Virus record (IMG/VR): IMGVR_UViG_3300031673_000041
Location: 1-61,382 of that record
Reading direction: 5' to 3' (one strand)
Source: a virus
Length of the DNA: 61,382 nt
The stretch's first letter is position 1, and every line of letters starts with the position of its first letter. A program made the position numbers and the translations under genes. Below are positions 10,565 to 53,500 of the stretch, in pieces. Under the pieces are notes generated by a model. That model was not told the origin of the DNA. It saw only the letters and a program-made list of their open reading frames with translations, and searched no databases.

Positions 10565-10792
10565 ATGAAAGAATTAGACATTCCGACATGGAAAACAGAA
10601 CTTGATGCTTTGCGTGGAAATTCCAGATTGATTAAACTGACAAAAGAACAACTTGAAATAGTTCACTATTCCCGCACAGGAAAAGAACCTTTGAGTTGGC
10701 ATAAAATTAAAGATTTTATTGATAAAAAATATGGCACAATATCATTAGAGGTGATCAAAAGGGAATACAATAAATACAAGGGGGAAATATAA
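10565..10792 (+). CDS. hypothetical protein (75 aa)
   Basis: ATG 1 nt after the upstream stop; SD GGAGTGG. Confidence 0.55.
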   Translation: MKELDIPTWKTELDALRGNSRLIKLTKEQLEIVHYSRTGKEPLSWHKIKDFIDKKYGTISLEVIKREYNKYKGEI

Positions 10793-11157
10793 TGGATCAT
10801 AAAGAAGTTAAATGGAAAGATTCTAAATTATGGTATTTTGCACATCCATATTCGGGAGAAAACGAACAGGGTAATTTTGACTTGAACAACGAGAGAGTGT
10901 CCGCCTTGTTGGATTTTGGTTATCGAATTTATGGCCCAATAACATATTGTCACGTATTGCACTTGGTAAAACATAGAGACTGGAAGTTCTGGATTGATTT
11001 TGACAGACCGTTTATGGAAAAATGTGATGGATTGATACTTGCGCCTGGATGGGAAAACTCAAAAGGTTGCAAGATAGAATATGAATACTTTCAAAAAGTA
11101 GGAAAGCCAATATTGTTTTACAGGGAACTGGTAAAATTGAAGGTTAAAAATAAATAA
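10792..11157 (+). CDS. nucleoside 2-deoxyribosyltransferase-like fold protein (DUF1937/DUF4406-like)
   Basis: TAATG overlap; WYFAHPYSG ... YGPITYCH ... CDGLILAPGWENSKGCKIEYEYF resembles that family. Confidence 0.4.
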   Translation: MDHKEVKWKDSKLWYFAHPYSGENEQGNFDLNNERVSALLDFGYRIYGPITYCHVLHLVKHRDWKFWIDFDRPFMEKCDGLILAPGWENSKGCKIEYEYFQKVGKPILFYRELVKLKVKNK

Positions 11158-11801: not shown

Positions 11802-12230
11802 ATGAGACTTGAAAAAAGATTTTTAGTTAAACAGAAAAATGGCATAATCATCCCGGATGAATGGAGATTATATCATAACAATATCAAGAAATTCAAGGAT
11901 CAGGACTTCTGGGTAGTATTCGAGAAAGTATTCAAGCAAAGATCGATACAGGAAAATCGTTATCTATTTGGTTGTGTTATTAAAATCCTTATCGAACAAA
12001 CTGAATCTTTTGGCGGATGGGAAAGCATAGAAGTTTATCGCTGGCTTGAATGGTTTTTTCTTAACAACTGGCCTGATGAAAAACCGAGACCGTGGATTAG
12101 TATTAAAAATTTATCAACGCTGGATTTTGAAGCGTTAATGGAACGGATCAGGGAATATGCACCGCAGGAATGGGACTGTATAATCCCCGAACCAAATCAA
12201 GTTAATTTAACGGGAGAAGTAATATTTTGA
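11802..12230 (+). CDS. NinB/Orf-like recombination mediator candidate
   Basis: KQRSIQENRYLFGCVIKIL resembles lambda NinB NRSLDQNRKLWACLGDV; C-terminal LSTLDFEALMERIREYA. No clear SD. Confidence 0.35.
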   Translation: MRLEKRFLVKQKNGIIIPDEWRLYHNNIKKFKDQDFWVVFEKVFKQRSIQENRYLFGCVIKILIEQTESFGGWESIEVYRWLEWFFLNNWPDEKPRPWISIKNLSTLDFEALMERIREYAPQEWDCIIPEPNQVNLTGEVIF

Positions 12231-12244
12231 ATAACTTAAAATGT

Positions 12245-12391
12245 ATGTTAAAAGAACCTTGCAAAAAACACAAATTAAATAAACTTGGATATGTAGCATG
12301 GTTTGACTGGGCAGACAAAATGATAGCAAAGGGAGAAAAGGAAATATATTGCGCTGAGTGTGGACGTTGGTTTTTTGAATGTGAATTTTAA
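12245..12391 (+). CDS. small zinc-binding protein (48 aa)
   Basis: MLKEPCKKH...GYVAWFDWADK...CAECGRWFFECEF; below the track cutoff; an upstream TTG start at 12227 is also possible. Confidence 0.45.
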   Translation: MLKEPCKKHKLNKLGYVAWFDWADKMIAKGEKEIYCAECGRWFFECEF

Positions 12392-12508
12392 TGGGAGAGA
12401 TAATATTTTGAAGTTGCCCGTTCTAAAATTAACACTTTCGTTAATTAACTATATGTCACGAAACTTAAATATAAACTTTTATAATTAACTATATTGGGAG
12501 GACGAAAG

Positions 12509-12688
12509 ATGGCAAATTATTGTAAGGATTGTGGGTGTAGAACAAATGGAGGAATCTGTTCTAATTGCCAAGAAGAATTATACATAATAGAATATCAGGG
12601 AGAGTTTGTTGAAACGATAAGTGATGAATTTGCACAAAAAGCAAACGAACAAAAAGAATATTTGAAGTACGGAAAATTGGAGGAATGA
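12509..12688 (+). CDS. small zinc-ribbon protein (59 aa)
   Basis: ATG after GGGAGGA; CKDCGC ... CSNC. Confidence 0.6.
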   Translation: MANYCKDCGCRTNGGICSNCQEELYIIEYQGEFVETISDEFAQKANEQKEYLKYGKLEE

Positions 12689-12691
12689 AAG

Positions 12692-12961
12692 ATGCCAATA
12701 GAAATAGAAAACGTAATAAAGGAATTGCAAGAATTTAATAAGGCCGACCAAAACTATATGGATATGATGGGCGATATTGAGGATAGATTTAATTTATTGT
12801 TGAAGGAATTAAATAAACTTTACGAAAAATACGATCAACTTGAAAACAAGTTATTGGAGGATTCAACAATTGGAATTAATACAACACAGGAAAGAAAACG
12901 ATGTGGTGAATTTGCTTTGGCGATATTAACACTCATTAAAAAATACGATGGGAGGACTTAA
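12692..12961 (+). CDS. hypothetical coiled-coil protein (89 aa)
   Basis: SD TGGAGGAA upstream. Confidence 0.6.
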   Translation: MPIEIENVIKELQEFNKADQNYMDMMGDIEDRFNLLLKELNKLYEKYDQLENKLLEDSTIGINTTQERKRCGEFALAILTLIKKYDGRT

Positions 12962-12962
12962 G

Positions 12963-13190
12963 ATGAAAGCAACATGGGATAATTATTTACCGATGTATAG
13001 AGAATGGCAAGAAGAACATTTTGCACCGTATAATGAACCAGATAAGCCTGAGCCTGAAGTGGAATGTGAATGTGGCTGGCAGGGTCAACAGGCCGACCTT
13101 CACAATCCAAACTCCTATGGCGATGATATTTATATCGAAGGTGAATGCTGCCCTAAATGTGGTTCTAAGAATGTAGGAGACATAAAGTGA
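12963..13190 (+). CDS. small zinc-ribbon protein (75 aa)
   Basis: ATG after GGGAGGA; CECGW ... CCPKCGS. Confidence 0.6.
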   Translation: MKATWDNYLPMYREWQEEHFAPYNEPDKPEPEVECECGWQGQQADLHNPNSYGDDIYIEGECCPKCGSKNVGDIK

Positions 13191-13339
13191 AATGTCCAAA
13201 ATGTGAAATACTTCTCGAATTGTATGATCAAGTTCCACAGACCAATAGAAATTATTGGCTTATGACAGAATTATTTGTAATGATTCATAATGGAAAAGAT
13301 GTATGTGATTATAGAGACATAACAAATGATGGGAGATAA
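13187..13339 (+). CDS. small zinc-ribbon-like protein (50 aa)
   Basis: GTGA overlap with the upstream stop; begins VKCPKCE; weak call. Confidence 0.35.
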   Translation: MKCPKCEILLELYDQVPQTNRNYWLMTELFVMIHNGKDVCDYRDITNDGR

Positions 13340-13351
13340 TGTTTTGAGAGA

Positions 13352-13502
13352 AGTTGCCTCTGTGGCGAAATCAAACGCACTGATTCCATCCAGATTTCGG
13401 CTACAGGCATACCATAAATCCATGAATTGGAGAGTATGTCACGAGTGAGATGGAAACTTTAAAACGAAATGCAGGTGTCGTCGAATCCTGTCAGGGGCAG
13501 TT
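13352..13502 (+). ncRNA. candidate structured RNA / 5' leader of the 13530-16226 operon
   Basis: An ORF-free stretch, visibly more G+C-rich than its flanks. AGTTGCCTCTG (13352-13362) pairs with CAGGGGCAGTT (13492-13502). An inner hairpin pairs GGCGAAATC with GATTTCGGC (13364-13372 / 13393-13401). ACAGG pairs with CCTGT (13403-13407 / 13487-13491). Confidence 0.35.
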
Positions 13503-13529
13503 CTCTAATTTAAAAAGGAGGAATAAAAC

Positions 13530-13769
13530 ATGACTAAAAATGACATGGGTCAAGAACATAGGATATGTAAGGAATGCTGGATCGAACACATAGAAAATTG
13601 TACTACTTGTTTTGGGTTCGGCTTAAAAAATCCAAAAGATAAATCTAAAAAACCTTATTCGCCGATAACGGCAGCAGCAGCAAAGGATAAACATGGAATA
13701 GAAGATTATGTAATTTGTCCTGAATGTCACGGGACACCGTTCGGGATAAAAAAAGGAGTCAACACATGA
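13530..13769 (+). CDS. zinc-ribbon protein (79 aa)
   Basis: SD AAAGGAGGA upstream; CKEC ... CTTC ... CPECHG. Confidence 0.65.
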   Translation: MTKNDMGQEHRICKECWIEHIENCTTCFGFGLKNPKDKSKKPYSPITAAAAKDKHGIEDYVICPECHGTPFGIKKGVNT

Positions 13770-13960
13770 TTAATCGAAAATTAATAACAAAGTTGAGAAA
13801 ACAAAACGGGTGGACTCTTGCGGAATTGTCGAAGCGGGCAAAGATAACGATTCCCGCATTGCACATGGTAGAAAAGGGGAAGGTCGGGAATCCCCGAATC
13901 AGTACGCTCACTGGCATAGCGAAAGCGTTGGGATGCGGAATTCAGGATCTTGTAAAGTAA
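13766..13960 (+). CDS. XRE-family helix-turn-helix regulator
   Basis: ATGA overlap, SD AAAGGAG; LRKQNGWTLAELSKRAKITIPALHMVEKGKVGNPRISTLTGIAKALGC is a classic HTH_3 pattern. Confidence 0.8.
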   Translation: MINRKLITKLRKQNGWTLAELSKRAKITIPALHMVEKGKVGNPRISTLTGIAKALGCGIQDLVK

Positions 13961-13971
13961 GAGGGGTGTAA

Positions 13972-15354
13972 ATGTTAAAATTATTTAGTGAGAACGTAGA
14001 ATTTATTTACGTTGAAAGTGTTATTGGTTCTGGTTATGAAGAACAAGTCGCAAAACTTGCAATTGAAGATGGGGTTGCATATAGGGCGGCACGTAAAAAT
14101 ATGCAGATACATTCTGCAATAATATTAAAAATAAATGATGAATTTAGTGGATTTTTTACGTTTCAAATTAACCACGAAGCAAAAGAATTCTGTTTACTAC
14201 AATCTGCTATGTCTTTAAATAAAAAAGACAAAGATATTTATAGAGATATGGTTGGTGAAATCATAGAACAGAATACTTTCGGTTATCCAATGATAATGAC
14301 TGTTAGCACAAAACATGATCTGGAATGTCCTGCCGTATTTGAATCAATCGGGTTTCAAACATATTTGAATTTAAGTGGATTTGCTTATATGGTTTATGGT
14401 ACATTAGATCAAGTTAGAATGAAAAGATTAGCACACGCAACTATGACAAACGCATGGACAACAACGAGGTCGGATTGGTTAAGAATGAAAAAAGAATGGA
14501 ACGAGAAAATTGAAGATGCTGGGGAAAAACATAATGTACCAAATCCCAAATATGCTTCTCGTGATGGTTGCTGGCAAGGCTCTAACGGATATTCAAACGT
14601 TGTGTTAGCATCACAAATCGTAGAAGATGGTAAGGTAATAAATAAAAAAGGTAAGTCATTTAATGGCAACGCCTCCGTTTTAGATCCTGTTGCATGTGAG
14701 GTCATATTGCGGTTTTTTATGCCAGAGACCGGTAAAAGCATTTATAATCCTTTTGGTGGTGGTGTTCAATTTGGTTTTATATCTGGTAGTTATGGTTATA
14801 AATATGTAGCAAGTGAAATAAGACAAAATCAATGTGATGCTAACAATAAAATATGTAGTGATTTTAAAGATGTGAAATGGATCAAAAGTGATAGCTCAAC
14901 CTATAAACCGGATGGAATGTTTGATTTAATTTTCACCTGTCCGCCATATTATAGGGTTGAAAAATATATAGATTATGATGGAAGTTCACCTGGTGGAGAG
15001 ATTAATACGCTTGGAACGTATGAAGAATTTAGGGATGCTTTGTTTTCTGGTTATAAAAAAGCTATAGATAGTTTAAATGATAATTGTTTTTTTGTTGCTA
15101 TGGTTGGCGATAGTAGGGGAAAGGACGGTGGCTATTATGGATGTGAAGCCGAGCATGAATTGTTTTTTAGGGAGCAAGGATTATATATTTATAATAAAAT
15201 AGTTTATTTAGAGTGTGAGTTTACAAGGTTAGCACACGCAAAAAGAACATTGGATTATAGGAAATTCCCTAAAAGAGAACAAAAGATACTTGTGTTTTAT
15301 AAAGGTGATATGAAAAAAATAAAAGAATTATATCCGCCAATTGGTAGATTGTAA
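13972..15354 (+). CDS. DNA N6-adenine/N4-cytosine methyltransferase with an extra N-terminal (GNAT-like?) domain
   Basis: SD AGAGGGG upstream. Motif I IYNPFGGGVQFG, motif IV DLIFTCPPYY, C-terminal KILVFYKGD, as in phage amino-methyltransferases. The N-terminal ~150 aa are unrelated and end in AVFESIGFQ. Confidence 0.8.
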   Translation: MLKLFSENVEFIYVESVIGSGYEEQVAKLAIEDGVAYRAARKNMQIHSAIILKINDEFSGFFTFQINHEAKEFCLLQSAMSLNKKDKDIYRDMVGEIIEQNTFGYPMIMTVSTKHDLECPAVFESIGFQTYLNLSGFAYMVYGTLDQVRMKRLAHATMTNAWTTTRSDWLRMKKEWNEKIEDAGEKHNVPNPKYASRDGCWQGSNGYSNVVLASQIVEDGKVINKKGKSFNGNASVLDPVACEVILRFFMPETGKSIYNPFGGGVQFGFISGSYGYKYVASEIRQNQCDANNKICSDFKDVKWIKSDSSTYKPDGMFDLIFTCPPYYRVEKYIDYDGSSPGGEINTLGTYEEFRDALFSGYKKAIDSLNDNCFFVAMVGDSRGKDGGYYGCEAEHELFFREQGLYIYNKIVYLECEFTRLAHAKRTLDYRKFPKREQKILVFYKGDMKKIKELYPPIGRL

Positions 15355-16226
15355 TGAAAGAATTTAAAAGTTTTTACAAATCTATAGAACATAGAAAATT
15401 CAATACTTGGTGTAAATATACTAAGAGATTAGACACCTATGGTTGTGGTTGCCAGCACAATTGTAAGTATTGCTATGCAAAAAGCTTATTGAGTTTTAGG
15501 GGTTTGTTTGGTGTTGAGTTGCCAAGGGTTGCAAACATTCATAAAATAAGAAATAAAATTAGAAAATTACCTAAATATGATTTTGTAAAATTGGGTGGTA
15601 TGACAGATTGTTTTCAGCCAATAGAATCACAAGAAAGTGTCACATATAATACAATTTTATTACTTAATCAATATAGAATTAGTTATTTGATTGTAACAAA
15701 AAACAATATGGTTTCAAGTGATTATTACATACAAATTTACGATAAAAACTTAGCACACTTTCAAATAACAATAACAACTACAGACGATAAGAAATGTTTT
15801 GAATATGAAAATGCACCTGGTACGAGTAAAAGAATAAAATCTATTGAAAAATTATATGGCTTAGGTTACGATGTAAGTGTCAGGTTGAGTCCATATCTTG
15901 AACAAAACATAGACTTTAAAACATTAAACAATATAAGGTGTAATAAAATACTTGTAGAGTTTTTGAAGGTTAACTCGTTTATAAGAAAATCTTTTAATAT
16001 AGACTATTCAGAATATACATTGGAATATGGTGGTTATTATCACTTGCCGTTAAAAAAGAAAATTGAACTTGTAAATAAAATAAATGGATTTGAACAATTA
16101 AGCGTTGGTGAATATGTTAAGGATCACCATTTATGGTTTAGAGATAATGTAAATTATAATAAAGGAGATTGTTGTAATCTTGACAGAATATATGAGGCAG
16201 ACAAACAGTTAGCGTTATTTAATTGA
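15354..16226 (+). CDS. radical SAM enzyme, spore-photoproduct-lyase-like (SplB / COG1533 type)
   Basis: TAATG overlap with the methyltransferase gene. YGCGCQHNCKYCYA (CxxxCxxC), GGMTDCFQPIE, YLIVTKNN and ITITTTD...GTSKRIKSIEKL..GYDVSVRLSPY match the family pattern. Confidence 0.7.
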   Translation: MKEFKSFYKSIEHRKFNTWCKYTKRLDTYGCGCQHNCKYCYAKSLLSFRGLFGVELPRVANIHKIRNKIRKLPKYDFVKLGGMTDCFQPIESQESVTYNTILLLNQYRISYLIVTKNNMVSSDYYIQIYDKNLAHFQITITTTDDKKCFEYENAPGTSKRIKSIEKLYGLGYDVSVRLSPYLEQNIDFKTLNNIRCNKILVEFLKVNSFIRKSFNIDYSEYTLEYGGYYHLPLKKKIELVNKINGFEQLSVGEYVKDHHLWFRDNVNYNKGDCCNLDRIYEADKQLALFN

Positions 16227-16241
16227 TTATAAAAATAACAC

Positions 16242-16270
16242 TTGCTTTTTACGATATTAATAATTATATT
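16242..16270 (+). promoter_or_regulatory. sigma70-type promoter, copy 4 of the cassette
   Basis: TTGCTT (16242-16247), 17 nt, TATATT (16265-16270); ATAAAAATAA upstream; AATAAT abuts the -10. Confidence 0.6.
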
Positions 16271-16336
16271 AAATAGAGGTCAAGGACAGAATTTTTATAA
16301 GGACACATTTTGAAATGGAAATTAGATTATTAATAA

Positions 16337-23640: not shown

Positions 23641-24423
23641 GTGAAAGAACAGATAAAATTAAATAATTTATCTATTGAGGAAACCAATAATATTATACCG
23701 CCCCATATGATCATGCTCAATTATCGTGGATCAATAGCACATGGGACATATGTTCCCCAAGAGGACAAGGATTCTATCGATGATAAGGATATATTGGGAA
23801 TATGTTTTGCAGAACCCAATGTATATCTTGGGTTGCATAACTTTGAACAAAAAGAAAAGAAATATAAGGAATGGGATTCTGTTGTGTATGAGATTCGCAA
23901 AGCATTTCGATTGCTGTTAAAACAAAATCCAAATATTCTTAGTTTACTTTGGGTTGATGATATTCATAGAATTTATACATCAGAAGTAGGAAAACTACTT
24001 TTAGAAAACAGAGATATGTTTTCTTCCAAACAAGCATATCATTCATTCGTGGGCTACGCATATAGTCAGTTACATCGGATGGAGCATTGTAATTTTAATG
24101 GATACATGGGAGCTAAGAGAAAAGCATTGGTTGAACGATTCGGATTTGACGTAAAAAACGCTTGTCATCTTATTAGACTTCTTCGAATGGGGATTGAATT
24201 TTTAACAGAGGGGAGATTGATTATAGCGAGACCAGATGCAGAGGAACTAAAAGAAATTAAAAAAGGGAAATGGACATTACAACAAGTTAAAAAGGAATCT
24301 GATCATTTGTTTGATTTGGCAAAAGAAGCATATGTAAGATCAGACCTTCCACCCAGACCAGATTATTATAAAGCAGAAGAAATATTAATTAGTATCATAA
24401 GGAATTATTTGTATTTAATGTGA
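23641..24423 (+). CDS. Pol-beta-superfamily nucleotidyltransferase, RlaP (RNA-repair-associated) type
   Basis: YRGSIAHGTYVPQEDKDSIDDKDILGI (GS...D.D) and VVYEIRKAFRLLLKQNPNILSLLW match the RlaP/Nuc-transf pattern. Confidence 0.65.
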   Translation: MKEQIKLNNLSIEETNNIIPPHMIMLNYRGSIAHGTYVPQEDKDSIDDKDILGICFAEPNVYLGLHNFEQKEKKYKEWDSVVYEIRKAFRLLLKQNPNILSLLWVDDIHRIYTSEVGKLLLENRDMFSSKQAYHSFVGYAYSQLHRMEHCNFNGYMGAKRKALVERFGFDVKNACHLIRLLRMGIEFLTEGRLIIARPDAEELKEIKKGKWTLQQVKKESDHLFDLAKEAYVRSDLPPRPDYYKAEEILISIIRNYLYLM

Positions 24424-25133: not shown

Positions 25134-25561
25134 AATACTGTGAAGAGATTGTGGTACAATTAGAGGAAGCAATCAAGTCTGGACTTTCAGATAAAAAGTC
25201 TTGTGATTTAGTGGGTATTAATAAAGTAACGTTCTATCGATGGCAAAACAAATACTTACAAGATGATAAAACACCGAATCCTGTTTATAAAAGCAACTTA
25301 AGCAACCGGTTAAAAAAAGCACGAGCGGAAAAGTGCAAACTCTATGCTGAGATGATTAAAACTGCAGGCATAGGGGAATTTGAAGCGACTTGTCCGCATT
25401 GTAATGAAAAGCATATAATTAAACTTCCACAGAAACAATGGCAAGCGATAGCATGGTTAGCAGAGCGGACAGAGTTCGATGAATTTGGAGCAAGACAGAA
25501 GATCGATAGCAATATTGCAGTCAAGGGGCCAATTGAGGTTATCGTAAAAGATGACAGATAA
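25130..25561 (+). CDS. terS: terminase small subunit candidate (HTH)
   Basis: ATGA overlap. N-terminal HTH-like AIKSGLSDKKSCDLVGINKVTFYRWQNKY. Sits immediately upstream of terL and overlaps it. Confidence 0.6.
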   Translation: MKYCEEIVVQLEEAIKSGLSDKKSCDLVGINKVTFYRWQNKYLQDDKTPNPVYKSNLSNRLKKARAEKCKLYAEMIKTAGIGEFEATCPHCNEKHIIKLPQKQWQAIAWLAERTEFDEFGARQKIDSNIAVKGPIEVIVKDDR

Positions 25562-26834
25562 TTTTGGCAATATAGCTCATTTCCGAAAGCCGCATGATAA
25601 GCAGGTAGAATTTATTGACAGTAAGGCGAAGAGGAAAATAATACGAGCAGGTAGAAGATCGGGGAAAACTGTTGGTGTTGCAGATTTAGCGGGTCGCCGG
25701 TTTATATATGATAAACAGCGCATATTATATGCTGCACCTACAGACGATCAGGTCAGTCGTTTTTGGCATGAAATAGTGAGTACATTTTGGGAGTTAATTG
25801 AATCGAATATATTATATAAAAATGAGACTAAGCATATCCTTGAAGTGCAAGGGACGGAACAGCGCATACGTGCAAAGACCGCCTGGAATGCTGATACATT
25901 GAGGGGGGATTATGCCGATCTTCTTATTCTTGATGAATGGCAATTAATGAATGAGGACGCATGGGGACTTGTCGGTGCACCAATGTTATTGGATAATGAT
26001 GGTGATGCAATATTTATTTATACGCCTCCGTCGATCAGAACAAGAAGTGTTACAAAGGCATACGATCCACAACATGCCGCTAAATTATTTAAAAAAGCGA
26101 AAGCAGATACTACAGGACGATGGGAAGCTTTTAGTTTTACCAGTCATGAGAATCCACATATCAGCGAAAATGCTTTGCAGGAAATAACACAAGATATGAC
26201 TTCTTTGGCGTATCAACAGGAAATAATGGCGGAGGATATTGAGGAAGTACCAGGGGCATTGTGGACAGTTGAAATGATTACAAAGGCATATATAGAAACA
26301 GCCCCAAAACTTAGGAAGGTAGTTGTTGGTGTTGATCCACAAGGGCGAAATATTAAATCAGCAGAGACGGGAATAGTTGTAATGGGACTTGGGGAAGATG
26401 ATTTGCATGGTTATGTATTGGCGGATAAATCGATCAATGCACGACCCGAAGGATGGGGAAGGCAGGTTGTAGAGGCATATCATGAATGGGAGGCAAATTA
26501 TGTCGTGGCAGAATCAAATTACGGTGGAGAGATGGTTGAAAGTGTTATCAAGGCAGTAGACAAAGACGTGCCCGTTAAATTGGTTCACGCGAGCAGGGGG
26601 AAGATTGTTCGGGCAGATCCGATTTCGGCAAAATACGAAAAAGGACTTATTCATCATGTTGGAAGTTTCCCCAAATTAGAAAATGAAATGTTAACATATA
26701 TAGGTGACCCAAGATGGAGCCCAAACCGATTAGATGCTTTAGTATGGGCAGGGACTTATTTAATGTTAAAGTATAGAGGACATTCGGACGGATTTATTTT
26801 AGTTGAAAGAGAAACAGAGGCGTTACCATTTTAA
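25551..26834 (+). CDS. terL: terminase large subunit
   Basis: Walker A AGRRSGKT, Walker B DLLILDEWQ, C-terminal RNaseH-like nuclease region (VVGVDPQG ... YVVAESNYGG ... D). Confidence 0.9.
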   Translation: MTDNFGNIAHFRKPHDKQVEFIDSKAKRKIIRAGRRSGKTVGVADLAGRRFIYDKQRILYAAPTDDQVSRFWHEIVSTFWELIESNILYKNETKHILEVQGTEQRIRAKTAWNADTLRGDYADLLILDEWQLMNEDAWGLVGAPMLLDNDGDAIFIYTPPSIRTRSVTKAYDPQHAAKLFKKAKADTTGRWEAFSFTSHENPHISENALQEITQDMTSLAYQQEIMAEDIEEVPGALWTVEMITKAYIETAPKLRKVVVGVDPQGRNIKSAETGIVVMGLGEDDLHGYVLADKSINARPEGWGRQVVEAYHEWEANYVVAESNYGGEMVESVIKAVDKDVPVKLVHASRGKIVRADPISAKYEKGLIHHVGSFPKLENEMLTYIGDPRWSPNRLDALVWAGTYLMLKYRGHSDGFILVERETEALPF

Positions 26835-43007: not shown

Positions 43008-43763
43008 ATGATGCAGCTTATCCATTCAAGTGGTACAGAATTTTTCAGTAAAATATTTACTGTAATGTATAATCTGAAAAACGTAAATAAATACGGTTAT
43101 AATTCATATGAGCCATGCTTATTTTATGGAATGTATTTCAATGAAGATTCTATACGGTTAATGGAGCATAGGGGACAGGCGATTATATTATGGGCTGGAT
43201 CGGATATTAGAAGTAAGGGTCAACCATTTATTACAAAAAATACACCTACCAAAGTTTTGCATTTGGCAGCATCTCCATCGATTGAGCAGAGATTAAAAAG
43301 GGTAGGATTTTCATATCGCAGAATCCCGAACATTGCATTTACAAATTGGGATTACTGGAAACCCGAACCGCTTGGTGAAAAGATTTATTTCTATGCGCCG
43401 TCCGATTTTTATGGTCTTAACTGTCTTGACCAGATTAAAGAATTTGGTTATCCGGTTATCCATATTGATCGAGCGCAGAGACACGACATCTCAAAACTAC
43501 GCAACATTTATAAGGAATGTTTTATTGGGTTGAGATTAACACCGGAGGACGGAAACTCTGCAACGGTCTTAGAGATGGGATTAATGGGAAGGAAGACTAT
43601 CTGGAATGGCGACCAGTTGTCGGCTATACCGTGGAATGATTTTGATAAGCTCAATGAATTAATTTGCGTGGAAGCAAAAAAGATCGGAACAAGTCAAGAT
43701 GCTTTTGCAAAAAAAGTTTATGATTCAGTTACTAAGACAACCGAGGGGTGGTTTGATGTATAA
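43008..43763 (+). CDS. glycosyltransferase-like (GT-B C-terminal half-like) protein
   Basis: FIGLRLTPEDGNSATVLEMGLMGRKTIWNG resembles a GT-B nucleotide-sugar-binding segment; weak by-eye call. Confidence 0.35.
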   Translation: MMQLIHSSGTEFFSKIFTVMYNLKNVNKYGYNSYEPCLFYGMYFNEDSIRLMEHRGQAIILWAGSDIRSKGQPFITKNTPTKVLHLAASPSIEQRLKRVGFSYRRIPNIAFTNWDYWKPEPLGEKIYFYAPSDFYGLNCLDQIKEFGYPVIHIDRAQRHDISKLRNIYKECFIGLRLTPEDGNSATVLEMGLMGRKTIWNGDQLSAIPWNDFDKLNELICVEAKKIGTSQDAFAKKVYDSVTKTTEGWFDV

Positions 43764-43911
43764 ATTAATAATAGGTTTTTTGTTGTTTATTTTATTGTCT
43801 TGTACTTACAATCCAAACATTCAAGATAATTCTATATGCGAGCATAGACAGACAAAGGTATCATGGGATGGTATTGAACGATGTTTGCAATGCGGGGCAA
43901 TAATTGAATGA
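43756..43911 (+). CDS. small lipoprotein-like, Cys-containing peptide (51 aa)
   Basis: MYKLIIGFLLFILLSC (lipobox-like LLSC), then CEH...CLQCG. Its start overlaps the upstream stop and its stop overlaps the radical SAM start (ATGA). Confidence 0.45.
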   Translation: MYKLIIGFLLFILLSCTYNPNIQDNSICEHRQTKVSWDGIERCLQCGAIIE

Positions 43912-44687
43912 ACAGTCCGAACTTATTGAAGATTGAAACAACTGACAAATGTAATTCGGAATGTGTTTTCTGTCTACATCGAAAACATGCAGGGCACGAT
44001 ATGGACTTTGATCTATTTAAAAAGATAGTCGATATGTTTCCGGATGCGCAGACTGTTTCACCTCAATTTTTCGGAGAGCCTACAATGTATCTGCAATTAC
44101 CAGAAGCGATTCAATATGCAAAGGATGCAGGGAAAAGGGTAAACTTTTATACAAACGGATCTTTTATTTATGGCAATATGGTATCGGTGGCGAGCGCAAA
44201 ACCGGATCATATCATATTCTCGGTCGAGGCAGACAATAAAGAACTCTATGAAAAGATAAGGGTCGGACTTAATTGGAGCAGATTCTTGTTTAATCTTGAT
44301 GCAATGCAGGAATTCTGCACAGACACAACTATTACAATCAGGATGACAATCTGCAAAGAAAATCAGAATCGGATTGGAGAGATTAAAGCATTCTGGCAAG
44401 ACAAGGGATTTTATGTTGTGGCAGTTCCGGAGGCTCCCATAAAAAGATTTAAAACAGATAAATATAACAACTATAAATGTGATCGACCAATGAGACAGTT
44501 AATTGTAAAATGGAATGGCGACGTGGTTTTTTGCTGTGTTGATTTATGGGGAAAATATGTAATAGGTAATGTCAAGAATGAGGGGGAGTCAATTTGGATG
44601 AATAAAAGATTTAATGAATTAATAAAAACAATTAATACGGAAGACGCCCCAACTTTATGTTTAACATGTGGATTTCGGACAAGATAG
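43908..44687 (+). CDS. radical SAM enzyme with partial SPASM (twitch-like) domain
   Basis: CNSECVFC (CxxxCxxC). C-terminal CDRPMRQLIVKWNGDVVFC fits C-x9-15-G-x4-C, then CLTC. At 259 aa it is BtrN-like in size. Confidence 0.8.
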   Translation: MNSPNLLKIETTDKCNSECVFCLHRKHAGHDMDFDLFKKIVDMFPDAQTVSPQFFGEPTMYLQLPEAIQYAKDAGKRVNFYTNGSFIYGNMVSVASAKPDHIIFSVEADNKELYEKIRVGLNWSRFLFNLDAMQEFCTDTTITIRMTICKENQNRIGEIKAFWQDKGFYVVAVPEAPIKRFKTDKYNNYKCDRPMRQLIVKWNGDVVFCCVDLWGKYVIGNVKNEGESIWMNKRFNELIKTINTEDAPTLCLTCGFRTR

Positions 44688-44698
44688 AAGGAACGACA

Positions 44699-45247
44699 AT
44701 GGGACAAGAACAAAATAGTCAATTTTACAATAATATATACGATTCGGTTTTAAGTTATCAACATCACTATGCCGACAGTTTGTATTATAAACTGTGGCAA
44801 GAATTAAGTAAATGGATTGAACCAGACATGAAAATCATTGATCTTGGTTGTGGGTCGGGGCAATTAGCAAATCTTTTATACGATATTGGGATCAAAAATT
44901 ATATTGGGATAGATTTTAGTCAGACTGCAATTGATATGGCAAATAAAATTAATCAAATTAAAACATTCCAATTTATTTGTGCTGATTTTAGAACTTGTCC
45001 GATTCCCGAAGGTGACACTTATATGTTATCAGAAGTGCTTGAACACGTTCAAGATGATCTTGAATTATTAAAGAAAATTCCTGATAATAAACGGATTATT
45101 GCCAGTGTTCCAAATTTTGATTGTTCAGGACATGTTAGATATTTTTTAAATGAAAATAGTGTTAGTAAAAGATATAATAAAATTATCAATATTGAATACT
45201 TATATAATGTTAACAATAAATTTTTTGTTTTTATAGGAAAAAATTAA
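44699..45247 (+). CDS. class I SAM-dependent methyltransferase
   Basis: IIDLGCGSGQLAN (motif I), IGIDFS, YMLSEVLEHV. Confidence 0.8.
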   Translation: MGQEQNSQFYNNIYDSVLSYQHHYADSLYYKLWQELSKWIEPDMKIIDLGCGSGQLANLLYDIGIKNYIGIDFSQTAIDMANKINQIKTFQFICADFRTCPIPEGDTYMLSEVLEHVQDDLELLKKIPDNKRIIASVPNFDCSGHVRYFLNENSVSKRYNKIINIEYLYNVNNKFFVFIGKN

Positions 45248-45290
45248 TATAAAAGTTGCAGGTTTAAGACAGGACAGGAGAAACGAAAAA

Positions 45291-46352
45291 ATGAAAAAAC
45301 CAACTATCGCATACGTAACACAGCACAATTGTTTAAGAGTAACTAAGGAGTCGGTTTGTTTAATTGATCTCGGCTACAAGGTGCATTTATTGTCACAAGT
45401 AATGACCAATAATAGACATTATACCAGTCCTCACCAATGGATACAACTATCGGATTTTGAAGAGACTGTCAAGCTGATGGATAAAAGTATTGACATCTGG
45501 CACGTTCATAATCATCCGAACTGGTTTGCATCAAAGATTAGAGAACTACTTCCAAAGTCGAAAATTGTATTCGATTATCACGATTCAAATTATTGGTTTA
45601 TTGATCAGAGCCCTCTACATAATACGAGCGAATTAACGACATGGTATACAGAGGATATCGCAGTCAGATCCGCAGACGCTTTTATTGTCCCGTCTGAAAA
45701 GTGCAAAGAAGAACTCCGGACACGAACAAGGAAGCCGATTAGGGTGGTACCGCCCGCCGTTCCGATTGCGATGTATGCGAATACGGAATGGAATGTATGG
45801 GGCGGATTAGTATCAGCTGGCGGCCATGCAACTGCATCTCGAAAGGGAGTTTTTCAGCATAATTCATGGCGGGATTACGGAGAACTTTACAAAGCATTGC
45901 AAGGGAAGCGAAAAGTCTTTGCATACTCTCCGTCATTTAATTTGGTCGAGAATGACAAGGTCGCTCAATATTATATGAACATGGGTGTCTCACTGAATAG
46001 ATTTAATTATCCGGATTTGATTGACAGGATTGGAGAACATACATGGAATCTGGTTGGGAATTTAAAACATACGAAAGTTATGGATTATATGGCTCCAAAC
46101 AAATTCTATGATGCAATCGCCGCAGGAGTTCCAAGCCTTGTATTGAACGCAGAGAGTGTCGGTAATCTTGTGGAAAAATACGGGATCGGAATTTATATTA
46201 AAGGTGATGATACGGATTATATTATTGACCAGATTATGAAACGATGGGAAGAACACCACGAGAAAAGATATAATCTAATAATGAAACGCAGAAAATTCTC
46301 AATGGAAAATTATATTGGACAAATAACCAGGTTGTATGAAACAATATTATAG
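45291..46352 (+). CDS. glycosyltransferase, GT-B fold (GT1/GT4-like)
   Basis: SD ACAGGAGA upstream; two-lobed pattern; APNKFYDAIAAGVPSLVLNAESVGNLVEKYGIGIYI resembles the GT-B C-terminal donor site. Confidence 0.6.
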   Translation: MKKPTIAYVTQHNCLRVTKESVCLIDLGYKVHLLSQVMTNNRHYTSPHQWIQLSDFEETVKLMDKSIDIWHVHNHPNWFASKIRELLPKSKIVFDYHDSNYWFIDQSPLHNTSELTTWYTEDIAVRSADAFIVPSEKCKEELRTRTRKPIRVVPPAVPIAMYANTEWNVWGGLVSAGGHATASRKGVFQHNSWRDYGELYKALQGKRKVFAYSPSFNLVENDKVAQYYMNMGVSLNRFNYPDLIDRIGEHTWNLVGNLKHTKVMDYMAPNKFYDAIAAGVPSLVLNAESVGNLVEKYGIGIYIKGDDTDYIIDQIMKRWEEHHEKRYNLIMKRRKFSMENYIGQITRLYETIL

Positions 46353-50556: not shown

Positions 50557-53500
50557 ATGGGTATGTTTACTGGACTCACTGGTGGTGGCGTAGGGGATAT
50601 TGTAGGGTTTGTAAAATTTTCCGGAATAGACCAAGCGAATGCGGATCTCGACAGGCTGAACGCAAAAGTTAGTAATGCCAGTCAAGTAATGAACAAGACT
50701 CTTAATATTACCATGCTCGCTGGGGCAGCAGCGATGGGAGCGGCCGCCATTGCATCTATTAAGTTTGAATCAGCATTTGCCGGAGTTACTAAGACAGTCG
50801 AAGGACTCCGTGACCCGATGGGTAAACTCACCGCAGAGGGTGAGGCAATGGCTAAATCCATTCGGGGCATTTCTCTTGAGACACCCATCGCAGTTGGTGA
50901 ATTAGCACGAATCGGAGAACTTGGTGGACAGTTAGGAATAGCAAGGGGCGACTTAACTTCATTCATTGACACTATTTCAAAAATAGCCGTAACAACAGAC
51001 TTAACTATTGAGTCAGCTTCGACAGACATGGCTCGGTTTGTCAATATCACAAAACAGGTTGCCCCAGAAGGCATGACGGCAGCGATGCAGATTGAACGAC
51101 TTGGTTCTACCGTTGTTGATTTGGGAAATAATTTAGCCACGACAGAATCAGAAATTCTATCAATGGGTATGAGGTTAGCGGGTGCAGGAAATCAGATCGG
51201 ATTATCGCAAGCTGAAATACTTGGATTATCAGGGGCATTATCTTCTGTTGGTTTAGAAGCACAAATGGGCGGTACTGCTATTTCTAAGGCAATGATTGAA
51301 ATGGCTAATAGTGTCGCTGTAGGTGGCCCAAAACTCGAAGCATTTGCAGATGCAGCCAGAATGTCATCGGATGAATTTGCTAATTTATTTAAAGAAGATG
51401 CAGCCGCAGCAATCACGGCATTTATTACCGGGCTTGGAGATGTTAGCGAAACAGGTGGAAATACTTTTGCTGTTCTTGAAGATTTGGGATTTTCAGAAAT
51501 CAGGCTTCGGGATGCTTTATTGCGAGCCAGTTCCGCAAGCGATTTATTCTCAAAGTCTATACAGATGGGATCGGATGCCTATGTAGAGAATAACGCTTTA
51601 AATAAGGAAGCAGCGCAACGATTTGGAACAACTGAATCACAATTAAAGATATTAAAAAATATTATTGTTGATACGTTTATTTCTATTGGCAATGACTTTG
51701 TTCCCGTATTGAATGATATGTTGACCGCATTTAATCAGCATCCGGAAGCGATTCAATCTGTTATAAAGGTATTGGGAAAAGCTACTATTGCAATAGGGGG
51801 GCTCGCAGTTGCAACAAAAGCCTATTTATTAGTGGCTAAATTAGCAGGTATAAATACAGCGGGATTTGCAGCGGCATTCGGCCCTATCGGTCTGGTGATT
51901 GCCGGAGTCACAGTCGCTATGGCTGCTCTCAAAGAGATTAATGATAAATATTATGCTAAGCAGATTGAAACAATACAAGCAACCAGTGATGAAATAGAGG
52001 AAATGGATGCACTTGCAAAAATCATCGGTGAATCGGAAAAGGTCACAGTAGACGTATGGAGAGCGCAAGAAGATTTTGAGGAAGCATTGCGCAAGGTCGG
52101 TATTGAAGCGAATGTAACAAGGGAGAATGTTCGTGAATTGAATGAGCAATACCGGAAGATGCGAGAGGAATCTATCAATGCACAGATTGCTGATTTAAAA
52201 ATAAAACTCGACTCATTAAATCAGAATCTTGGGGTTGCTGCTGGATATTTAGGGAACGTTTATAATAGTACCGATGAATGGGAGCGGAAATTAGCGGCAC
52301 TGGAAGCAGAGTTACTCGAACTCAATCCACCACTTGAAGAAACGGTTACAAATACCGATGAACTCGCAGGGGCAATGGAAGACGAAGCATTAGCAGTGAA
52401 AGCATTAAATGATCCCTTTGCAGAGATGCTAAAAACAATGGAGGATGGTGTCGAACCGATACAGTCATTGAGAGACCAGTTCCATATAATTAAAGAGGAA
52501 ACGGCGTTATGGTCTGATCAAATCAAGGGAGTTCCGGGCAAGATTGTTGACGTAGGTACAGCTGCTGATGGAGCAAACAAACCGCTTGAATATGAGGTTG
52601 GGTTGTGGGGGCAATTAGTCCATGAGATAAAAACAGGAGAGGGAACATTAGTAAAGGATGCTGCATTAGTTTTTAACATAGCTGGTAAATTAGGGATATT
52701 TAACGAAGAAACAAAAACAGCGATTGATAAAACTGTCAGTTTGGTTGCCAGTTTTAATACCCTTAGCACTACAGGGCAGATATTGAGCGGTATTTCGCTT
52801 GGGATAGACTTACTGTCGTATGGTTATGATTTATTGTTTGGAAGTGCTGAAAGAATACCAATGACCTTAGAAGATGTTACGGCTCATTTTGATACAATGG
52901 GTATATCCATTGATAATATTCAGGCTAATCTTGAAGCATTAAATGCAGAATTTAATTTACCAGTTTTGGAAAAGTACGGACAGGATTTAGCATACGCAGT
53001 TGATCAAGTTGTATTGCAGGAAAGTTTAACCGGATCATGGGCTATGCGGGTTGAAGAATTGACGATAGCTATTGGCAAGTTGAGTGGGGCATTTAATTTT
53101 ATGACTCTATTCGACGAAGCAGTTCAGGGATATAGTGCTTTTAATGATGAGATTGAACGGATGTTTGTTTTATTTGGTGGTGGCTTAGCTCCCGGAACTG
53201 ATCCTGCTGGATTTGCAGAACTGTTAACAGGTAGTATTATTTCACTTGGGGTTGAGATGTCAAGGGTGCCAGTAGATTCAGAGGCATGGAGGTTGTTAAA
53301 TGCTGAATGGATGGAAAGTCGGCAATCATTGACTGATTTGGCAACTATGTATCCTGAAGTATTGCAATATCTTCAAGATCATGCCGTATATGGTCAAGAC
53401 TTAACTTGGATGTTAATAGAGGAAACGGTGGCAACCGATGCTTTAAGTGTTTCGACAAAAAGGGTTATAAAATCTACTGGGGAGAGTGCGGCTGCGGTTG

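What the first reader, a model, noticed from the sequence alone, without database searches (positions are those of the whole stretch)
13766..16226. HTH regulator, GNAT-like/methyltransferase fusion and SPL-like radical SAM enzyme: candidate DNA modification or repair system
Three tightly linked genes make up the operon.
- The first is a 64-aa XRE HTH, resembling an R-M controller protein in size and position.
- The second is a 460-aa protein. Its C-terminal half has clear amino-MTase motifs (FGGG motif I, TCPPYY motif IV, KILVFYKGD). Its first ~150 aa are an unrelated domain that looks like a degenerate GNAT fold (…AVFESIGFQ).
- The third overlaps the second by TAATG. It is a 290-aa radical SAM protein of the SplB/COG1533 type (CGCQHNCKYCYA, GGMTDCFQPIE, LIVTKN).
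No restriction endonuclease is present, so this is not a standard R-M unit. SplB repairs thymine dimers by radical chemistry, and phage Mu Mom is a GNAT-fold enzyme that acylates adenine. An MTase, an acyltransferase-like domain and a radical SAM enzyme under one HTH could make or repair a non-canonical DNA base. I know of no described system with this composition.
Basis: partly seen in the sequence, partly recalled or inferred. Interest (0 to 1): 0.75.

Follow-up and report, generated by a model that had tools for sequence, protein, structure and literature searches.

The report
Phage GNAT-methyltransferase plus radical SAM module
A tailed phage carries a two-gene unit, an acetyltransferase-fold/methyltransferase fusion protein and a spore-photoproduct-lyase-like radical SAM enzyme, that are always found together (sometimes fused) in related phages and probably build an undescribed chemical modification on phage DNA.

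Summary
The three ORFs and every quoted motif are real. The 64-aa protein is an XRE HTH. The 460-aa protein has an N-terminal GNAT fold (AF2 pLDDT 84; all top Foldseek hits are GNAT acetyltransferases) and a C-terminal amino-methyltransferase domain of the phage "ParB-MTase" (S/T)CPPY family. The 290-aa protein is a CX3CX2C radical SAM enzyme whose closest solved structure is spore photoproduct lyase.

Main result: in 65 of 66 non-redundant related loci, the GNAT-MTase lies next to a radical-SAM-type partner. The remaining locus is cut at a contig edge. The partner is either the window's type (RS, 16 loci) or a divergent, unannotated Cys-rich homologue (EXT, 49 loci). In 13 loci EXT is fused to the MTase N-terminus, giving ~740-aa proteins. 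No third gene is conserved.

The HTH occurs only in this phage and is not part of the system. There is no restriction enzyme.

Best reading: an obligate two-component module that modifies a nucleic-acid base, most likely DNA after replication. The chemistry is unknown. The RS family also sits in phage DNA-modification islands (ParB, C5-MTases, TAGT glycosyltransferases, DpdA, Mom). I found no published description. It is a new variant of phage DNA hypermodification systems and a good experimental target.

The parts
13766..13960 (+). 64-aa XRE-family HTH protein. A local neighbour, not a conserved component of the module.
   Evidence: PF01381 HTH_3 E 1.3e-11. RBS AAAGGAG lies upstream of ATG 13766. 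No homologue in 143+21 related loci. It is the only XRE HTH among 32 upstream neighbours.
13972..14421 (+). GNAT-fold N-terminal domain (aa 1-150) of the 460-aa fusion protein. Invariant residues cluster in alpha1-alpha2 (AYRAARKNMQIHSA, aa 36-49) and beta4 (EFCLLQS, aa 72-78). There is no canonical Q/RxxGxG/A CoA loop.
   Evidence: AF2 model pLDDT 84.4, pTM 0.80, with topology b1-a1-a2-b2-b3-b4-a3-b5-a4-b6-b7. The Foldseek PDB top 50 are all GNAT acetyltransferases (Gcn5, EctA, NatD...), E ~1e-5, TM ~0.6. No Pfam/PHROG hit. The family is narrow: 77 clusters at 50% identity in 1.8e9 proteins. Invariant columns.
14422..14658 (+). Linker / helical region (aa ~151-229). From about aa 164 onward it is shared with phage ParB-MTase fusion proteins.
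   Evidence: tblastn matches to ParB-MTase proteins start at query aa 164-234. Alignment. pLDDT is low after aa 150 in the isolated N-domain model.
14659..15354 (+). SAM-dependent amino-methyltransferase domain (aa ~230-460). Motif I is NPFGGGVQFG (FGGG at nt 14752-14763). Motif IV is FTCPPYY (nt 14935-14952). The C-terminal motif is KILVFYKGD (nt 15283-15309).
   Evidence: phrog_498 'DNA methyltransferase' E 1.2e-36; phrog_12517 E 5.7e-39. PF01555 N6_N4_Mtase E 3.9e-4, below the gathering score. 26-37% identity to MTase domains of ParB-MTase proteins of Listeria, Enterococcus, Clostridium and Mycobacterium phages. The (S/T)CPPY and FxGG motifs are shared with those relatives.
15354..16226 (+). 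290-aa SPL-like radical SAM enzyme ('RS' type). The CX3CX2C motif is at aa 33-40 (within nt 15444-15479). Further invariant Cys: C20, C86 (GGMTDCFQPIE), C273/C274 (DCCNL).
   Evidence: PF04055 E 3.7e-6. PA0069-family rSAM E 4e-19 and rSAM mobile pair B E 3e-13, both far below cutoffs. AF2 pLDDT 86.9. The six best Foldseek PDB hits are spore photoproduct lyase (4fhf, 4fhc...), E 6e-8 to 6e-7, TM 0.57-0.63; next is LipA at 8e-5. Cys conservation. The start overlaps the MTase stop (TAATG).

Best explanation
The 460-aa GNAT-fold/amino-methyltransferase fusion protein and the 290-aa SPL-like radical SAM enzyme form an obligate two-component module of environmental tailed phages. It chemically modifies a nucleic-acid base, most likely phage DNA after replication, to escape host restriction.

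Proposed division of labour (inferred):
- The MTase domain binds DNA, flips the target base and uses SAM to write a methyl group on an exocyclic amine.
- The radical SAM partner uses a [4Fe-4S] cluster and a second SAM to make a 5'-deoxyadenosyl radical. This radical abstracts a hydrogen from the (methylated) base.
- The GNAT-fold domain binds or transfers a further group, giving a hypermodified base.

Shown here: the folds, the motifs, the obligate pairing and the fusions. Inferred: DNA as the target, the order of steps and the product.

The upstream XRE HTH is a neighbour specific to this phage, not a system component.
For: Pairing:
- 66 non-redundant loci carry the GNAT-MTase. 16 have the RS-type rSAM directly downstream, 31 have EXT directly downstream, 13 have EXT fused to the N-terminus as one ~740-aa ORF, and 5 have EXT directly upstream. 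One is uninformative because the gene is cut at the contig edge (L101 corrected).
- 20 of the 120 best database homologues are >650 aa; the four retrieved are N-terminal EXT fusions.
- EXT is a remote homologue of RS. hhalign gives 95% probability globally (E 6e-9) and 93% locally (E 4e-7), with matching beta-strand motifs.
- So two different rSAM-type families, in three gene arrangements, keep the same partner.
- Flanking genes are otherwise variable. No third gene is conserved, and 46 distinct upstream neighbours were seen.
- RS proteins partnered with the GNAT-MTase form one clade.

Folds:
- GNAT.
- SPL-like rSAM.
- MTase domain related to phage ParB-DNA-MTase fusions.

DNA context:
- The module sits in replication modules, next to replisome organiser, SSB, primase-helicase or PolA genes.
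- The wider RS family lies in phage DNA-modification islands. ParB or an MTase is within 3 genes in 48/66 loci. DpdA, TAGT, PAPS reductase, Mom, QueC and FolE also occur.

Precedent:
- Phage M6 gp53, an SPL-like rSAM, acts on DNA in thymidine hypermodification (PMC8989533).
- ParB homologues activate phage DNA-modifying enzymes (PMC13229309).
Against: - There is no biochemical or sequencing evidence for any modification.
- The GNAT domain lacks the canonical acyl-CoA pyrophosphate loop and matches no acetyltransferase HMM. It may not be an acyltransferase at all.
- Motif IV is CPPY rather than D/N/SPPY, and the Pfam N6_N4_Mtase score is below threshold.
- The MTase relatives are called DNA methyltransferases by annotation only.
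- EXT lacks the third Cys of CX3CX2C, so its radical SAM activity is unproven.
- The domain set (rSAM + GNAT + MTase) also fits an RNA-modifying, Elp3-like system.
- Related loci were collected by similarity to the window proteins, and many contigs are short.
Confidence: 0.55

Rival explanations
1. RNA-modifying, Elp3-like system. The rSAM and GNAT domains act as in Elongator Elp3: a radical addition of an acetyl-CoA-derived carbon to a base. The MTase acts as in Trm9. The target is host or phage tRNA/rRNA rather than DNA.
For: The domain composition, rSAM + GNAT + MTase, matches Elp3 plus Trm9 (established knowledge). In the fused forms the order rSAM-like then GNAT matches Elp3. PPY-motif MTases also include RNA and protein amide methylases; the best PDB sequence hit is 3evz, a generic 'methyltransferase'.
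Against: The MTase domain's detectable relatives are phage proteins fused to ParB domains and annotated as DNA MTases. The rSAM's nearest structure is the DNA enzyme SPL, and Elp3 is absent from the top 50. The module sits in replication modules and DNA-modification islands. The window has no tRNA genes.
Confidence: 0.15
2. These are two independent functions that merely sit together: an orphan anti-restriction DNA methyltransferase and a separate SPL-type DNA repair lyase for UV or spore-type photoproducts.
For: SPL is the closest solved structure. JGI annotates homologues as 'DNA repair photolyase'. Phage orphan MTases are common.
Against: 65/66 loci are paired, in three different arrangements including in-frame fusions. 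Two different rSAM-type families substitute for one another while every other neighbour varies. There is no match to the SplB NCBIfam model, and identity to SPL is 14-15%. ParB-MTase relatives of the MTase domain have no such neighbour.
Confidence: 0.07
3. The rSAM-type protein acts on the GNAT-MTase protein itself, as an activase or maturase making a post-translational radical modification. Alternatively, the pair modifies a small molecule or free nucleotide rather than a polymer.
For: Many rSAM enzymes are encoded next to the protein they activate. The tight coupling and the fusions are compatible with this. The N-domain family is narrow and its conserved basic alpha1-alpha2 surface could bind a nucleotide.
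Against: The fold is SPL-like, not activase-like: no glycyl-radical activase or SPASM maturase appears among the best hits. An intramolecular fusion of an activase with its substrate is unusual. The MTase domain belongs to a DNA-MTase-like family.
Confidence: 0.08
4. It is a controller-regulated restriction-modification or defence-type unit, with the HTH acting as a C-protein.
For: A small XRE HTH lies directly upstream of an MTase. PADLOC HTH and MTase models give weak hits.
Against: There is no nuclease gene. The HTH is absent from all related loci. The element is a phage genome with terminase, capsid and tail genes. PADLOC has no hit for the rSAM.
Confidence: 0.02

Closest known systems
Spore photoproduct lyase (SplB; PDB 4FHC/4FHF, Geobacillus)
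   Same: Radical SAM partial TIM-barrel with a CX3CX2C motif. It is the best structural match of the window protein (E 6e-8, TM ~0.6). Its substrate is DNA, and its chemistry centres on a thymine methyl radical (established knowledge).
   Different: Identity is only 14-15%. There is no hit to the SplB family model. The window protein is obligately paired or fused with a GNAT-MTase. It has extra invariant Cys (C20, C86, C273/274). It is phage-encoded and lies in a replication module.
Pseudomonas phage M6 gp53, the SPL-like rSAM isomerase of the thymidine hypermodification pathway (Lee et al. 2021, PMC8989533)
   Same: A phage SPL-like radical SAM enzyme that acts on DNA after replication as part of a hypermodification pathway.
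   Different: M6 gp53 works with a 5-hmdU kinase, an amino-acid:DNA transferase and a PLP decarboxylase. None of these is linked here. Here the only conserved partner is a GNAT-MTase. Direct sequence comparison with gp53 was not done.
Phage ParB-methyltransferase fusion proteins (phrog_498; e.g. Listeria phage B054 gp77, Enterococcus phage phiFL3A gp36)
   Same: The MTase domain is homologous at 26-37% identity, sharing FxGG, (S/T)CPPY and LVFYKGD motifs and the helical segment before the domain.
   Different: The ParB domain is replaced by a GNAT fold. The ParB-MTase loci retrieved (L129-L142) have no RS or EXT neighbour.
Elongator Elp3 (rSAM + GNAT/KAT) with Trm9 methyltransferase
   Same: The same three activities are combined. 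In the fused forms the rSAM-like domain precedes the GNAT domain, as in Elp3 (Elp3 architecture from established knowledge).
   Different: Elp3 modifies tRNA U34. Its rSAM domain is not SPL-like and is not among the top 50 structure hits. The GNAT domain here lacks motif A. The MTase here is a PPY-motif amino-MTase, not a Trm9-type carboxyl MTase.
TET/JBP-type 5-methylpyrimidine dioxygenase modules of phages (C5-MTase + 5mYOX + ParB + glycosyltransferase; PMC8256090, PMC13229309)
   Same: The RS family shares the same kinds of neighbours: C5-MTases, ParB homologues and TET-associated glycosyltransferases. ParB is an activator in those systems.
   Different: There is no dioxygenase domain; the chemistry would be oxygen-independent. 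The link is contextual only, and the 'island' effect cannot be excluded.
Phage Mu Mom (GNAT-fold adenine N6-carbamoylmethylation)
   Same: A GNAT fold used in phage DNA base modification (established knowledge). A Mom-family protein occurs in one RS locus.
   Different: The window's N-domain does not hit the Pfam Mom family. Mom is not among the top 50 viral structure matches, which are generic GNATs.

Membership tests
Radical SAM superfamily | CX3CX2C motif binding the [4Fe-4S] cluster | tested here: met
   C33-x3-C37-x2-C40 is present. C37 and C40 are invariant and C33 is in 57 of 58 family members; all three are invariant in 37/37.
Radical SAM superfamily | Match to the PF04055 model above the gathering score | tested here: inconclusive
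   E 3.7e-6, 27.7 bits against a cutoff of 29.5. Precomputed Pfam lists PF04055 for all close homologues.
Radical SAM superfamily | Partial TIM-barrel fold of rSAM enzymes | tested here: met
   AF2 pLDDT 86.9. All 50 listed PDB matches (41 of them at E<=1e-3) are rSAM enzymes.
Spore photoproduct lyase (SplB) family | Sequence membership (NCBIfam/TIGRFAM SplB model) | tested here: not met
   No SplB model among the NCBIfam hits at E<=0.1. The best hits are PA0069-family (68.7 bits vs cutoff 360) and rSAM mobile pair B (49.8 vs 410).
Spore photoproduct lyase (SplB) family | Closest structural neighbour is SPL | tested here: met
   The top six Foldseek hits are SPL entries, E 6e-8 to 6e-7, TM 0.57-0.63.
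Spore photoproduct lyase (SplB) family | Catalytic H-donor Cys (C140/141) and the Tyr relay | not tested
   An invariant C86 lies ~46 residues after the cluster motif, a spacing similar to SPL's (from memory). No residue-level structural alignment was available.
GNAT superfamily | b1-a1-a2-b2-b3-b4-a3-b5-a4-b6(-b7) fold | tested here: met
   The DSSP element order of the AF2 model fits. The top 50 PDB matches are all GNATs, and the viral library gives the same.
GNAT superfamily | Motif A Q/RxxGxG/A acyl-CoA pyrophosphate-binding loop between b4 and a3 | tested here: not met
   The b4-a3 loop is SLNKKD, with no Gly. It is variable in the family consensus (AMxLxxKDKxIY).
GNAT superfamily | Match to an acetyltransferase HMM (Pfam/PHROG) | tested here: not met
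   No Pfam hit on aa 1-200 at E<=0.1. No PHROG hit.
N6/N4 amino-DNA-methyltransferases | Motif I FxGxG (SAM binding) | tested here: met
   NPFGGGVQFG at aa 259-268. FGGG/FAGG is conserved in the family members and ParB-MTase relatives aligned.
N6/N4 amino-DNA-methyltransferases | Motif IV (D/N/S)PP(Y/F) | tested here: inconclusive
   The motif is T-C-P-P-Y-Y. The PPY is conserved, but the first residue is Cys in the whole (S/T)CPPY family.
N6/N4 amino-DNA-methyltransferases | Match to PF01555 above the gathering score | tested here: not met
   20.9 bits against a cutoff of 26.7. However, phrog_498 'DNA methyltransferase' gives E 1e-36.
R-M controller (C) protein unit | Small HTH conserved upstream of the R-M genes, together with a cognate endonuclease | tested here: not met
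   No endonuclease gene. The HTH is absent from all related loci.
Elp3-type rSAM-GNAT enzymes | rSAM and GNAT/KAT domains in one polypeptide, in that order | tested here: inconclusive
   This is true for the EXT-fused relatives but not for the window, which has separate genes with the rSAM downstream. EXT lacks the canonical motif.
Elp3-type rSAM-GNAT enzymes | Specific sequence or structure similarity to Elp3 | tested here: not met
   Elp3 is not among the top 50 PDB matches of either domain.

The most novel reading that the evidence does not exclude
The SPL-like radical SAM enzymes (RS and EXT) would be oxygen-independent counterparts of the TET/JBP 5-methylpyrimidine dioxygenases. They would activate, by hydrogen abstraction, a methyl group that the adjacent methyltransferase has just written on a DNA base. 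In this module that is N6-mA or N4-mC; in sister loci, 5mC written by C5-MTases. The activated carbon is then functionalised: acylated through the GNAT domain here, glycosylated by TAGT enzymes elsewhere, with ParB homologues as activators. This would define a new, anaerobic route to DNA hypermodification and a new DNA base. A variant of the same idea is an Elp3-like radical addition of an acyl-CoA-derived carbon to a DNA base, followed by methylation.
Probability: 0.15. Interest if true: 0.9.

Novelty: new variant of a known kind. Interest (0 to 1): 0.72.

Why it matters
Phage DNA hypermodifications shape phage-host conflict and have supplied tools for epigenetic sequencing and DNA labelling. 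Only one radical SAM enzyme, M6 gp53, has so far been shown to take part in installing a DNA modification.

This module is a compact cassette of two genes, or a single fused gene. Three enzyme folds are locked together across at least 66 distinct environmental phage loci, and thousands of proteins belong to the wider rSAM family. It predicts a base chemistry not yet seen.

It also brings to light an unannotated Cys-rich family (EXT). EXT is a remote radical-SAM homologue with a non-canonical CX11CX3C motif.

Because the cassette is small and self-contained, it can be tested directly by heterologous expression and nucleoside mass spectrometry.

Tried and rejected
- DNA-level search of GenBank phages with 13500-16300 found no match. 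The EXT protein has no match in GenBank phages either. No cultured phage carries the module.
- Sequence searches of PDB with the single proteins and with family profiles gave nothing useful. Structure prediction was needed.
- PADLOC gave no defence-system assignment.
- The promoter/terminator scan found counts at the level of shuffled sequence, so operon boundaries cannot be set.
- A search for a third conserved gene around the module found only variable replication genes.
- The idea that the HTH is a controller was rejected.
- The idea that the N-domain is a diverged ParB was rejected by the GNAT fold.
- A specific Mom relationship is not supported.
- TET/JBP genes were looked for next to RS in the TAGT-containing loci. 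None was found among the larger ORFs tested. The broad Pfam survey of RS neighbours lists only the top 25 families, so absence of TET across all loci is not established.
- Literature searches for a described equivalent found none.
Full report
**Observation.** The window is a ~61-kb tailed-phage genome, with essentially all genes on the + strand. It carries a large terminase (25551-26834), a MuF-like protein, a capsid protein and a candidate tape-measure gene (1,426-aa ORF at 50557-54837, assigned by size and position only). In the early/replication region, the ORF listing gives three tightly packed ORFs: 13766-13960 (64 aa from the ATG with a good RBS), 13972-15354 (460 aa) and 15354-16226 (290 aa). 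The last two overlap as TAATG. Independent gene callers on four public assemblies of the same phage call the same three genes.

**What the three proteins are.**
- The 64-aa protein is an XRE-family HTH (PF01381, E 1.3e-11).
- The C-terminal ~260 aa of the 460-aa protein match phrog_498 ('DNA methyltransferase', E 1e-36) and phrog_12517. They are 26-37% identical to the MTase domains of phage proteins annotated as ParB-domain/DNA methyltransferase fusions, from Listeria B054, Enterococcus phiFL3A, Clostridium phiCTP1 and mycobacteriophages.
- An alignment shows that motif I (F-x-G-G), an unusual motif IV (S/T)-C-P-P-Y and the C-terminal LVFYKGD are shared across this family. Pfam N6_N4_Mtase is hit only below threshold.
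- The first ~150 aa hit no Pfam or PHROG model. A search of 1.8 billion representative proteins found only 77 clusters, all at least 41% identical. The domain is therefore confined to this protein family.
- An AlphaFold2 model of residues 1-170 (pLDDT 84, pTM 0.80) has the b1-a1-a2-b2-b3-b4-a3-b5-a4-b6-b7 order of the GNAT fold. All 50 best PDB matches are GNAT acetyltransferases (E ~1e-5, TM ~0.6). The viral structure library gives the same result, and Mom is not among those hits.
- The canonical acyl-CoA loop (Q/RxxGxG/A) is absent. The invariant residues lie instead in alpha1-alpha2 (AYRAARKNMQIHSA) and beta4 (EFCLLQS).
- The 290-aa protein has an invariant CX3CX2C motif and weak matches to PA0069-type and 'mobile pair B' radical SAM families, far below their cutoffs. 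Its AF2 model (pLDDT 87) is closest to spore photoproduct lyase (six SPL entries, E 6e-8 to 6e-7, TM ~0.6). Lipoyl synthase and others follow at around 1e-4. It does not match the SplB family model. It is SPL-like, not an SplB orthologue.

**Co-conservation, the key test.** I fetched 80 viral loci with relatives of the rSAM and 63 with relatives of the MTase, plus 21 loci from GTDB genomes found with the GNAT domain. At first sight most MTase loci lacked the rSAM. However, about one in six of the best MTase homologues is ~740 aa long. The extra ~280 N-terminal residues form a Cys-rich domain I call EXT.

- EXT homologues lie directly beside the MTase in essentially every locus that lacks the window-type rSAM.
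- Counting non-redundant loci: 16 have RS directly downstream, 31 have EXT directly downstream, 13 have EXT fused in frame to the N-terminus, and 5 have EXT directly upstream. One is uninformative because the MTase is cut by the contig end (with L101 corrected).
- EXT has no Pfam domain and no annotation, and no match in GenBank phages.
- Profile-profile comparison shows that EXT is a remote homologue of the RS family. The probability is 95% globally and 93% locally (E 4e-7). The strand motifs correspond: RiGtxGDPS to RLGGMTDCFQP, IITKHW to IVTKS, INTSvS to QITiT.
- EXT has a three-residue deletion that removes the third Cys of CX3CX2C. An invariant upstream Cys gives CX11CX3C, and there is an invariant C-terminal CX2CX3C.
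- No other gene is conserved around the pair. Neighbours are variable replication genes: primase-helicase, SSB, DnaB, PolA and replisome organisers.
- RS proteins partnered with the GNAT-MTase form a single clade in a neighbour-joining tree.

Two distinct rSAM-type families keep the same partner in three arrangements, including fusion, while everything else changes. This is strong evidence for a joint function. It rules out the reading 'orphan MTase plus unrelated repair enzyme'.

**The HTH.** No related locus encodes a homologue. Of 32 small ORFs found directly upstream of the module in other loci, only the window's own is an XRE HTH. Promoter-like and terminator-like sites are at chance level. 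The HTH is a feature of this phage, not of the system, and the R-M controller analogy fails. There is also no nuclease.

**Wider context of the rSAM family.** The RS family has more than 5,000 members, annotated at best as 'DNA repair photolyase'.
- In 66 non-redundant viral loci, a ParB-like protein or a DNA MTase lies within three genes in 48, and directly adjacent in 37.
- The neighbours include C5-MTases, ParB fused to beta-class N6/N4 MTases, DpdA-like transglycosylases with YhhQ, PAPS reductase, an ABC-ATPase/GNAT protein with a formyltransferase, and TET-associated glycosyltransferases.
- A broader Pfam survey adds Mom, QueC and GTP cyclohydrolase I.
- In L060 and L080 the order is RS-ParB-TAGT. 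The larger unassigned ORFs tested there (two per locus) gave no TET/JBP match, and no other unassigned ORF of 200 aa or more lies in the flanks held.
- ParB homologues have recently been shown to activate phage thymine dioxygenases (PMC13229309) and, as DpdB, to act with DpdA (PMC10516641).
- The only published radical SAM enzyme in DNA modification, M6 gp53, is also SPL-like (PMC8989533).

This places RS-type enzymes among DNA-modifying functions. Clustering of unrelated modification genes in 'islands' is a caveat.

**Mechanism.**
- Shown: the three folds, intact SAM-binding and PPY motifs, an intact rSAM cluster motif, obligate pairing or fusion, and a location in replication modules.
- Inferred: the MTase domain recognises DNA, flips a base and methylates an exocyclic amine. 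The rSAM partner makes a 5'-deoxyadenosyl radical that abstracts a hydrogen from the base or its new methyl group; SPL chemistry runs through a thymine methyl radical. The GNAT-fold domain binds or transfers a further group.
- The product cannot be predicted. Two concrete models remain open: (a) oxygen-independent activation of an enzyme-written methyl group, analogous to TET/JBP, followed by acylation; (b) Elp3-like radical addition of an acyl-CoA-derived carbon, followed by methylation.
- An RNA target (the Elp3/Trm9 analogy) is the main rival. I rate it lower because the detectable relatives of both the MTase domain and the rSAM, and the genomic context, are DNA-related, and the phage has no tRNA genes.

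**Novelty.** Five full-text searches found no description of a GNAT-MTase/SPL-like rSAM module or of the EXT family. No cultured phage in GenBank carries it. It occurs in metagenomic phage contigs and in MAG bins from many phyla. I classify it as a new variant of a known kind: phage nucleic-acid hypermodification systems that use an SPL-like rSAM.

**Limits.**
- All functional statements are computational.
- Loci were collected by similarity to the window's proteins.
- ORFs in the related loci were called with a simple longest-ORF procedure.
- EXT was not folded.
- The residue-level correspondence of C86 to the SPL hydrogen-donor cysteine was not tested.

Noticed in passing
window 43008-46352: A second, unrelated enzyme island sits inside the structural module. 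It holds an unknown 251-aa protein, a radical SAM-SPASM protein (43908-44687; PF04055 2e-12, SPASM 1e-11), a class-I methyltransferase (44657-45247) and a GT4 glycosyltransferase (45291-46352). It may modify a virion protein, a peptide or a glycan.
   Followed up: partly
window 10792-11157 and 23641-24423: A nucleoside 2-deoxyribosyltransferase-like protein (phrog_355, 2e-16) and a nucleotidyltransferase (phrog_388, 1e-49) lie in the early region. They could bear on nucleotide or DNA chemistry.
   Followed up: no
related loci, e.g. L085 7385-8167; L088 5158-7380 (fused); proteins P0318-P0437: The EXT family has 414 database members at E<=1e-3, no Pfam domain and only 'hypothetical' names. It has invariant CX11CX3C and CX2CX3C motifs. 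It is a remote homologue of the SPL-like rSAM in which the third Cys of CX3CX2C is deleted.
   Followed up: partly
L060 3385-5537; L080 4021-7214: The genes are tightly packed in the order RS-type rSAM, ParB-like protein, TET-associated glycosyltransferase. No TET/JBP domain was found among the larger ORFs tested, and no other unassigned ORF of 200 aa or more lies within the flanks held. The rSAM may stand in for the dioxygenase.
   Followed up: partly
L041/L053/L030/L037/L050 (human-gut viral contigs), about 6058-9074 in L041: A recurrent cluster: RS-type rSAM, ParB-like protein, ABC-ATPase fused to a GNAT domain (phrog_11143), and a formyltransferase (PF00551). This is a second context in which this rSAM family meets a GNAT domain.
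   Followed up: partly
L001 4315-4947 (MT835521.1, human faecal phage): A short 210-aa C5-cytosine-MTase-like protein (ELFAG, SPDC and ENP motifs) lies directly upstream of a 63%-identical RS homologue. C5-MTases are adjacent to RS in 4 of 66 loci and within three genes in 8.
   Followed up: partly
RS-family loci (set A4): Single RS loci also carry a Mom-family protein (PF25680, 6e-47), QueC, GTP cyclohydrolase I and YhhQ, and even LlaJI/Bpu10I-type restriction endonuclease domains. The RS family lives in mixed DNA-modification islands.
   Followed up: no
L144 7398-7640 (Massilibacteroides MAG contig): Only a C-terminal fragment of RS (aa 209-289) follows an intact GNAT-MTase. This may be a decayed partner gene or an assembly problem.
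   Followed up: no
window 12227-13769: A run of small Cys-rich (zinc-ribbon-like, CxxC...CxxC) ORFs precedes the HTH. Among them is the 79-aa ORF 13530-13769, whose stop overlaps the HTH start (ATGA). Their function is unknown.
   Followed up: no
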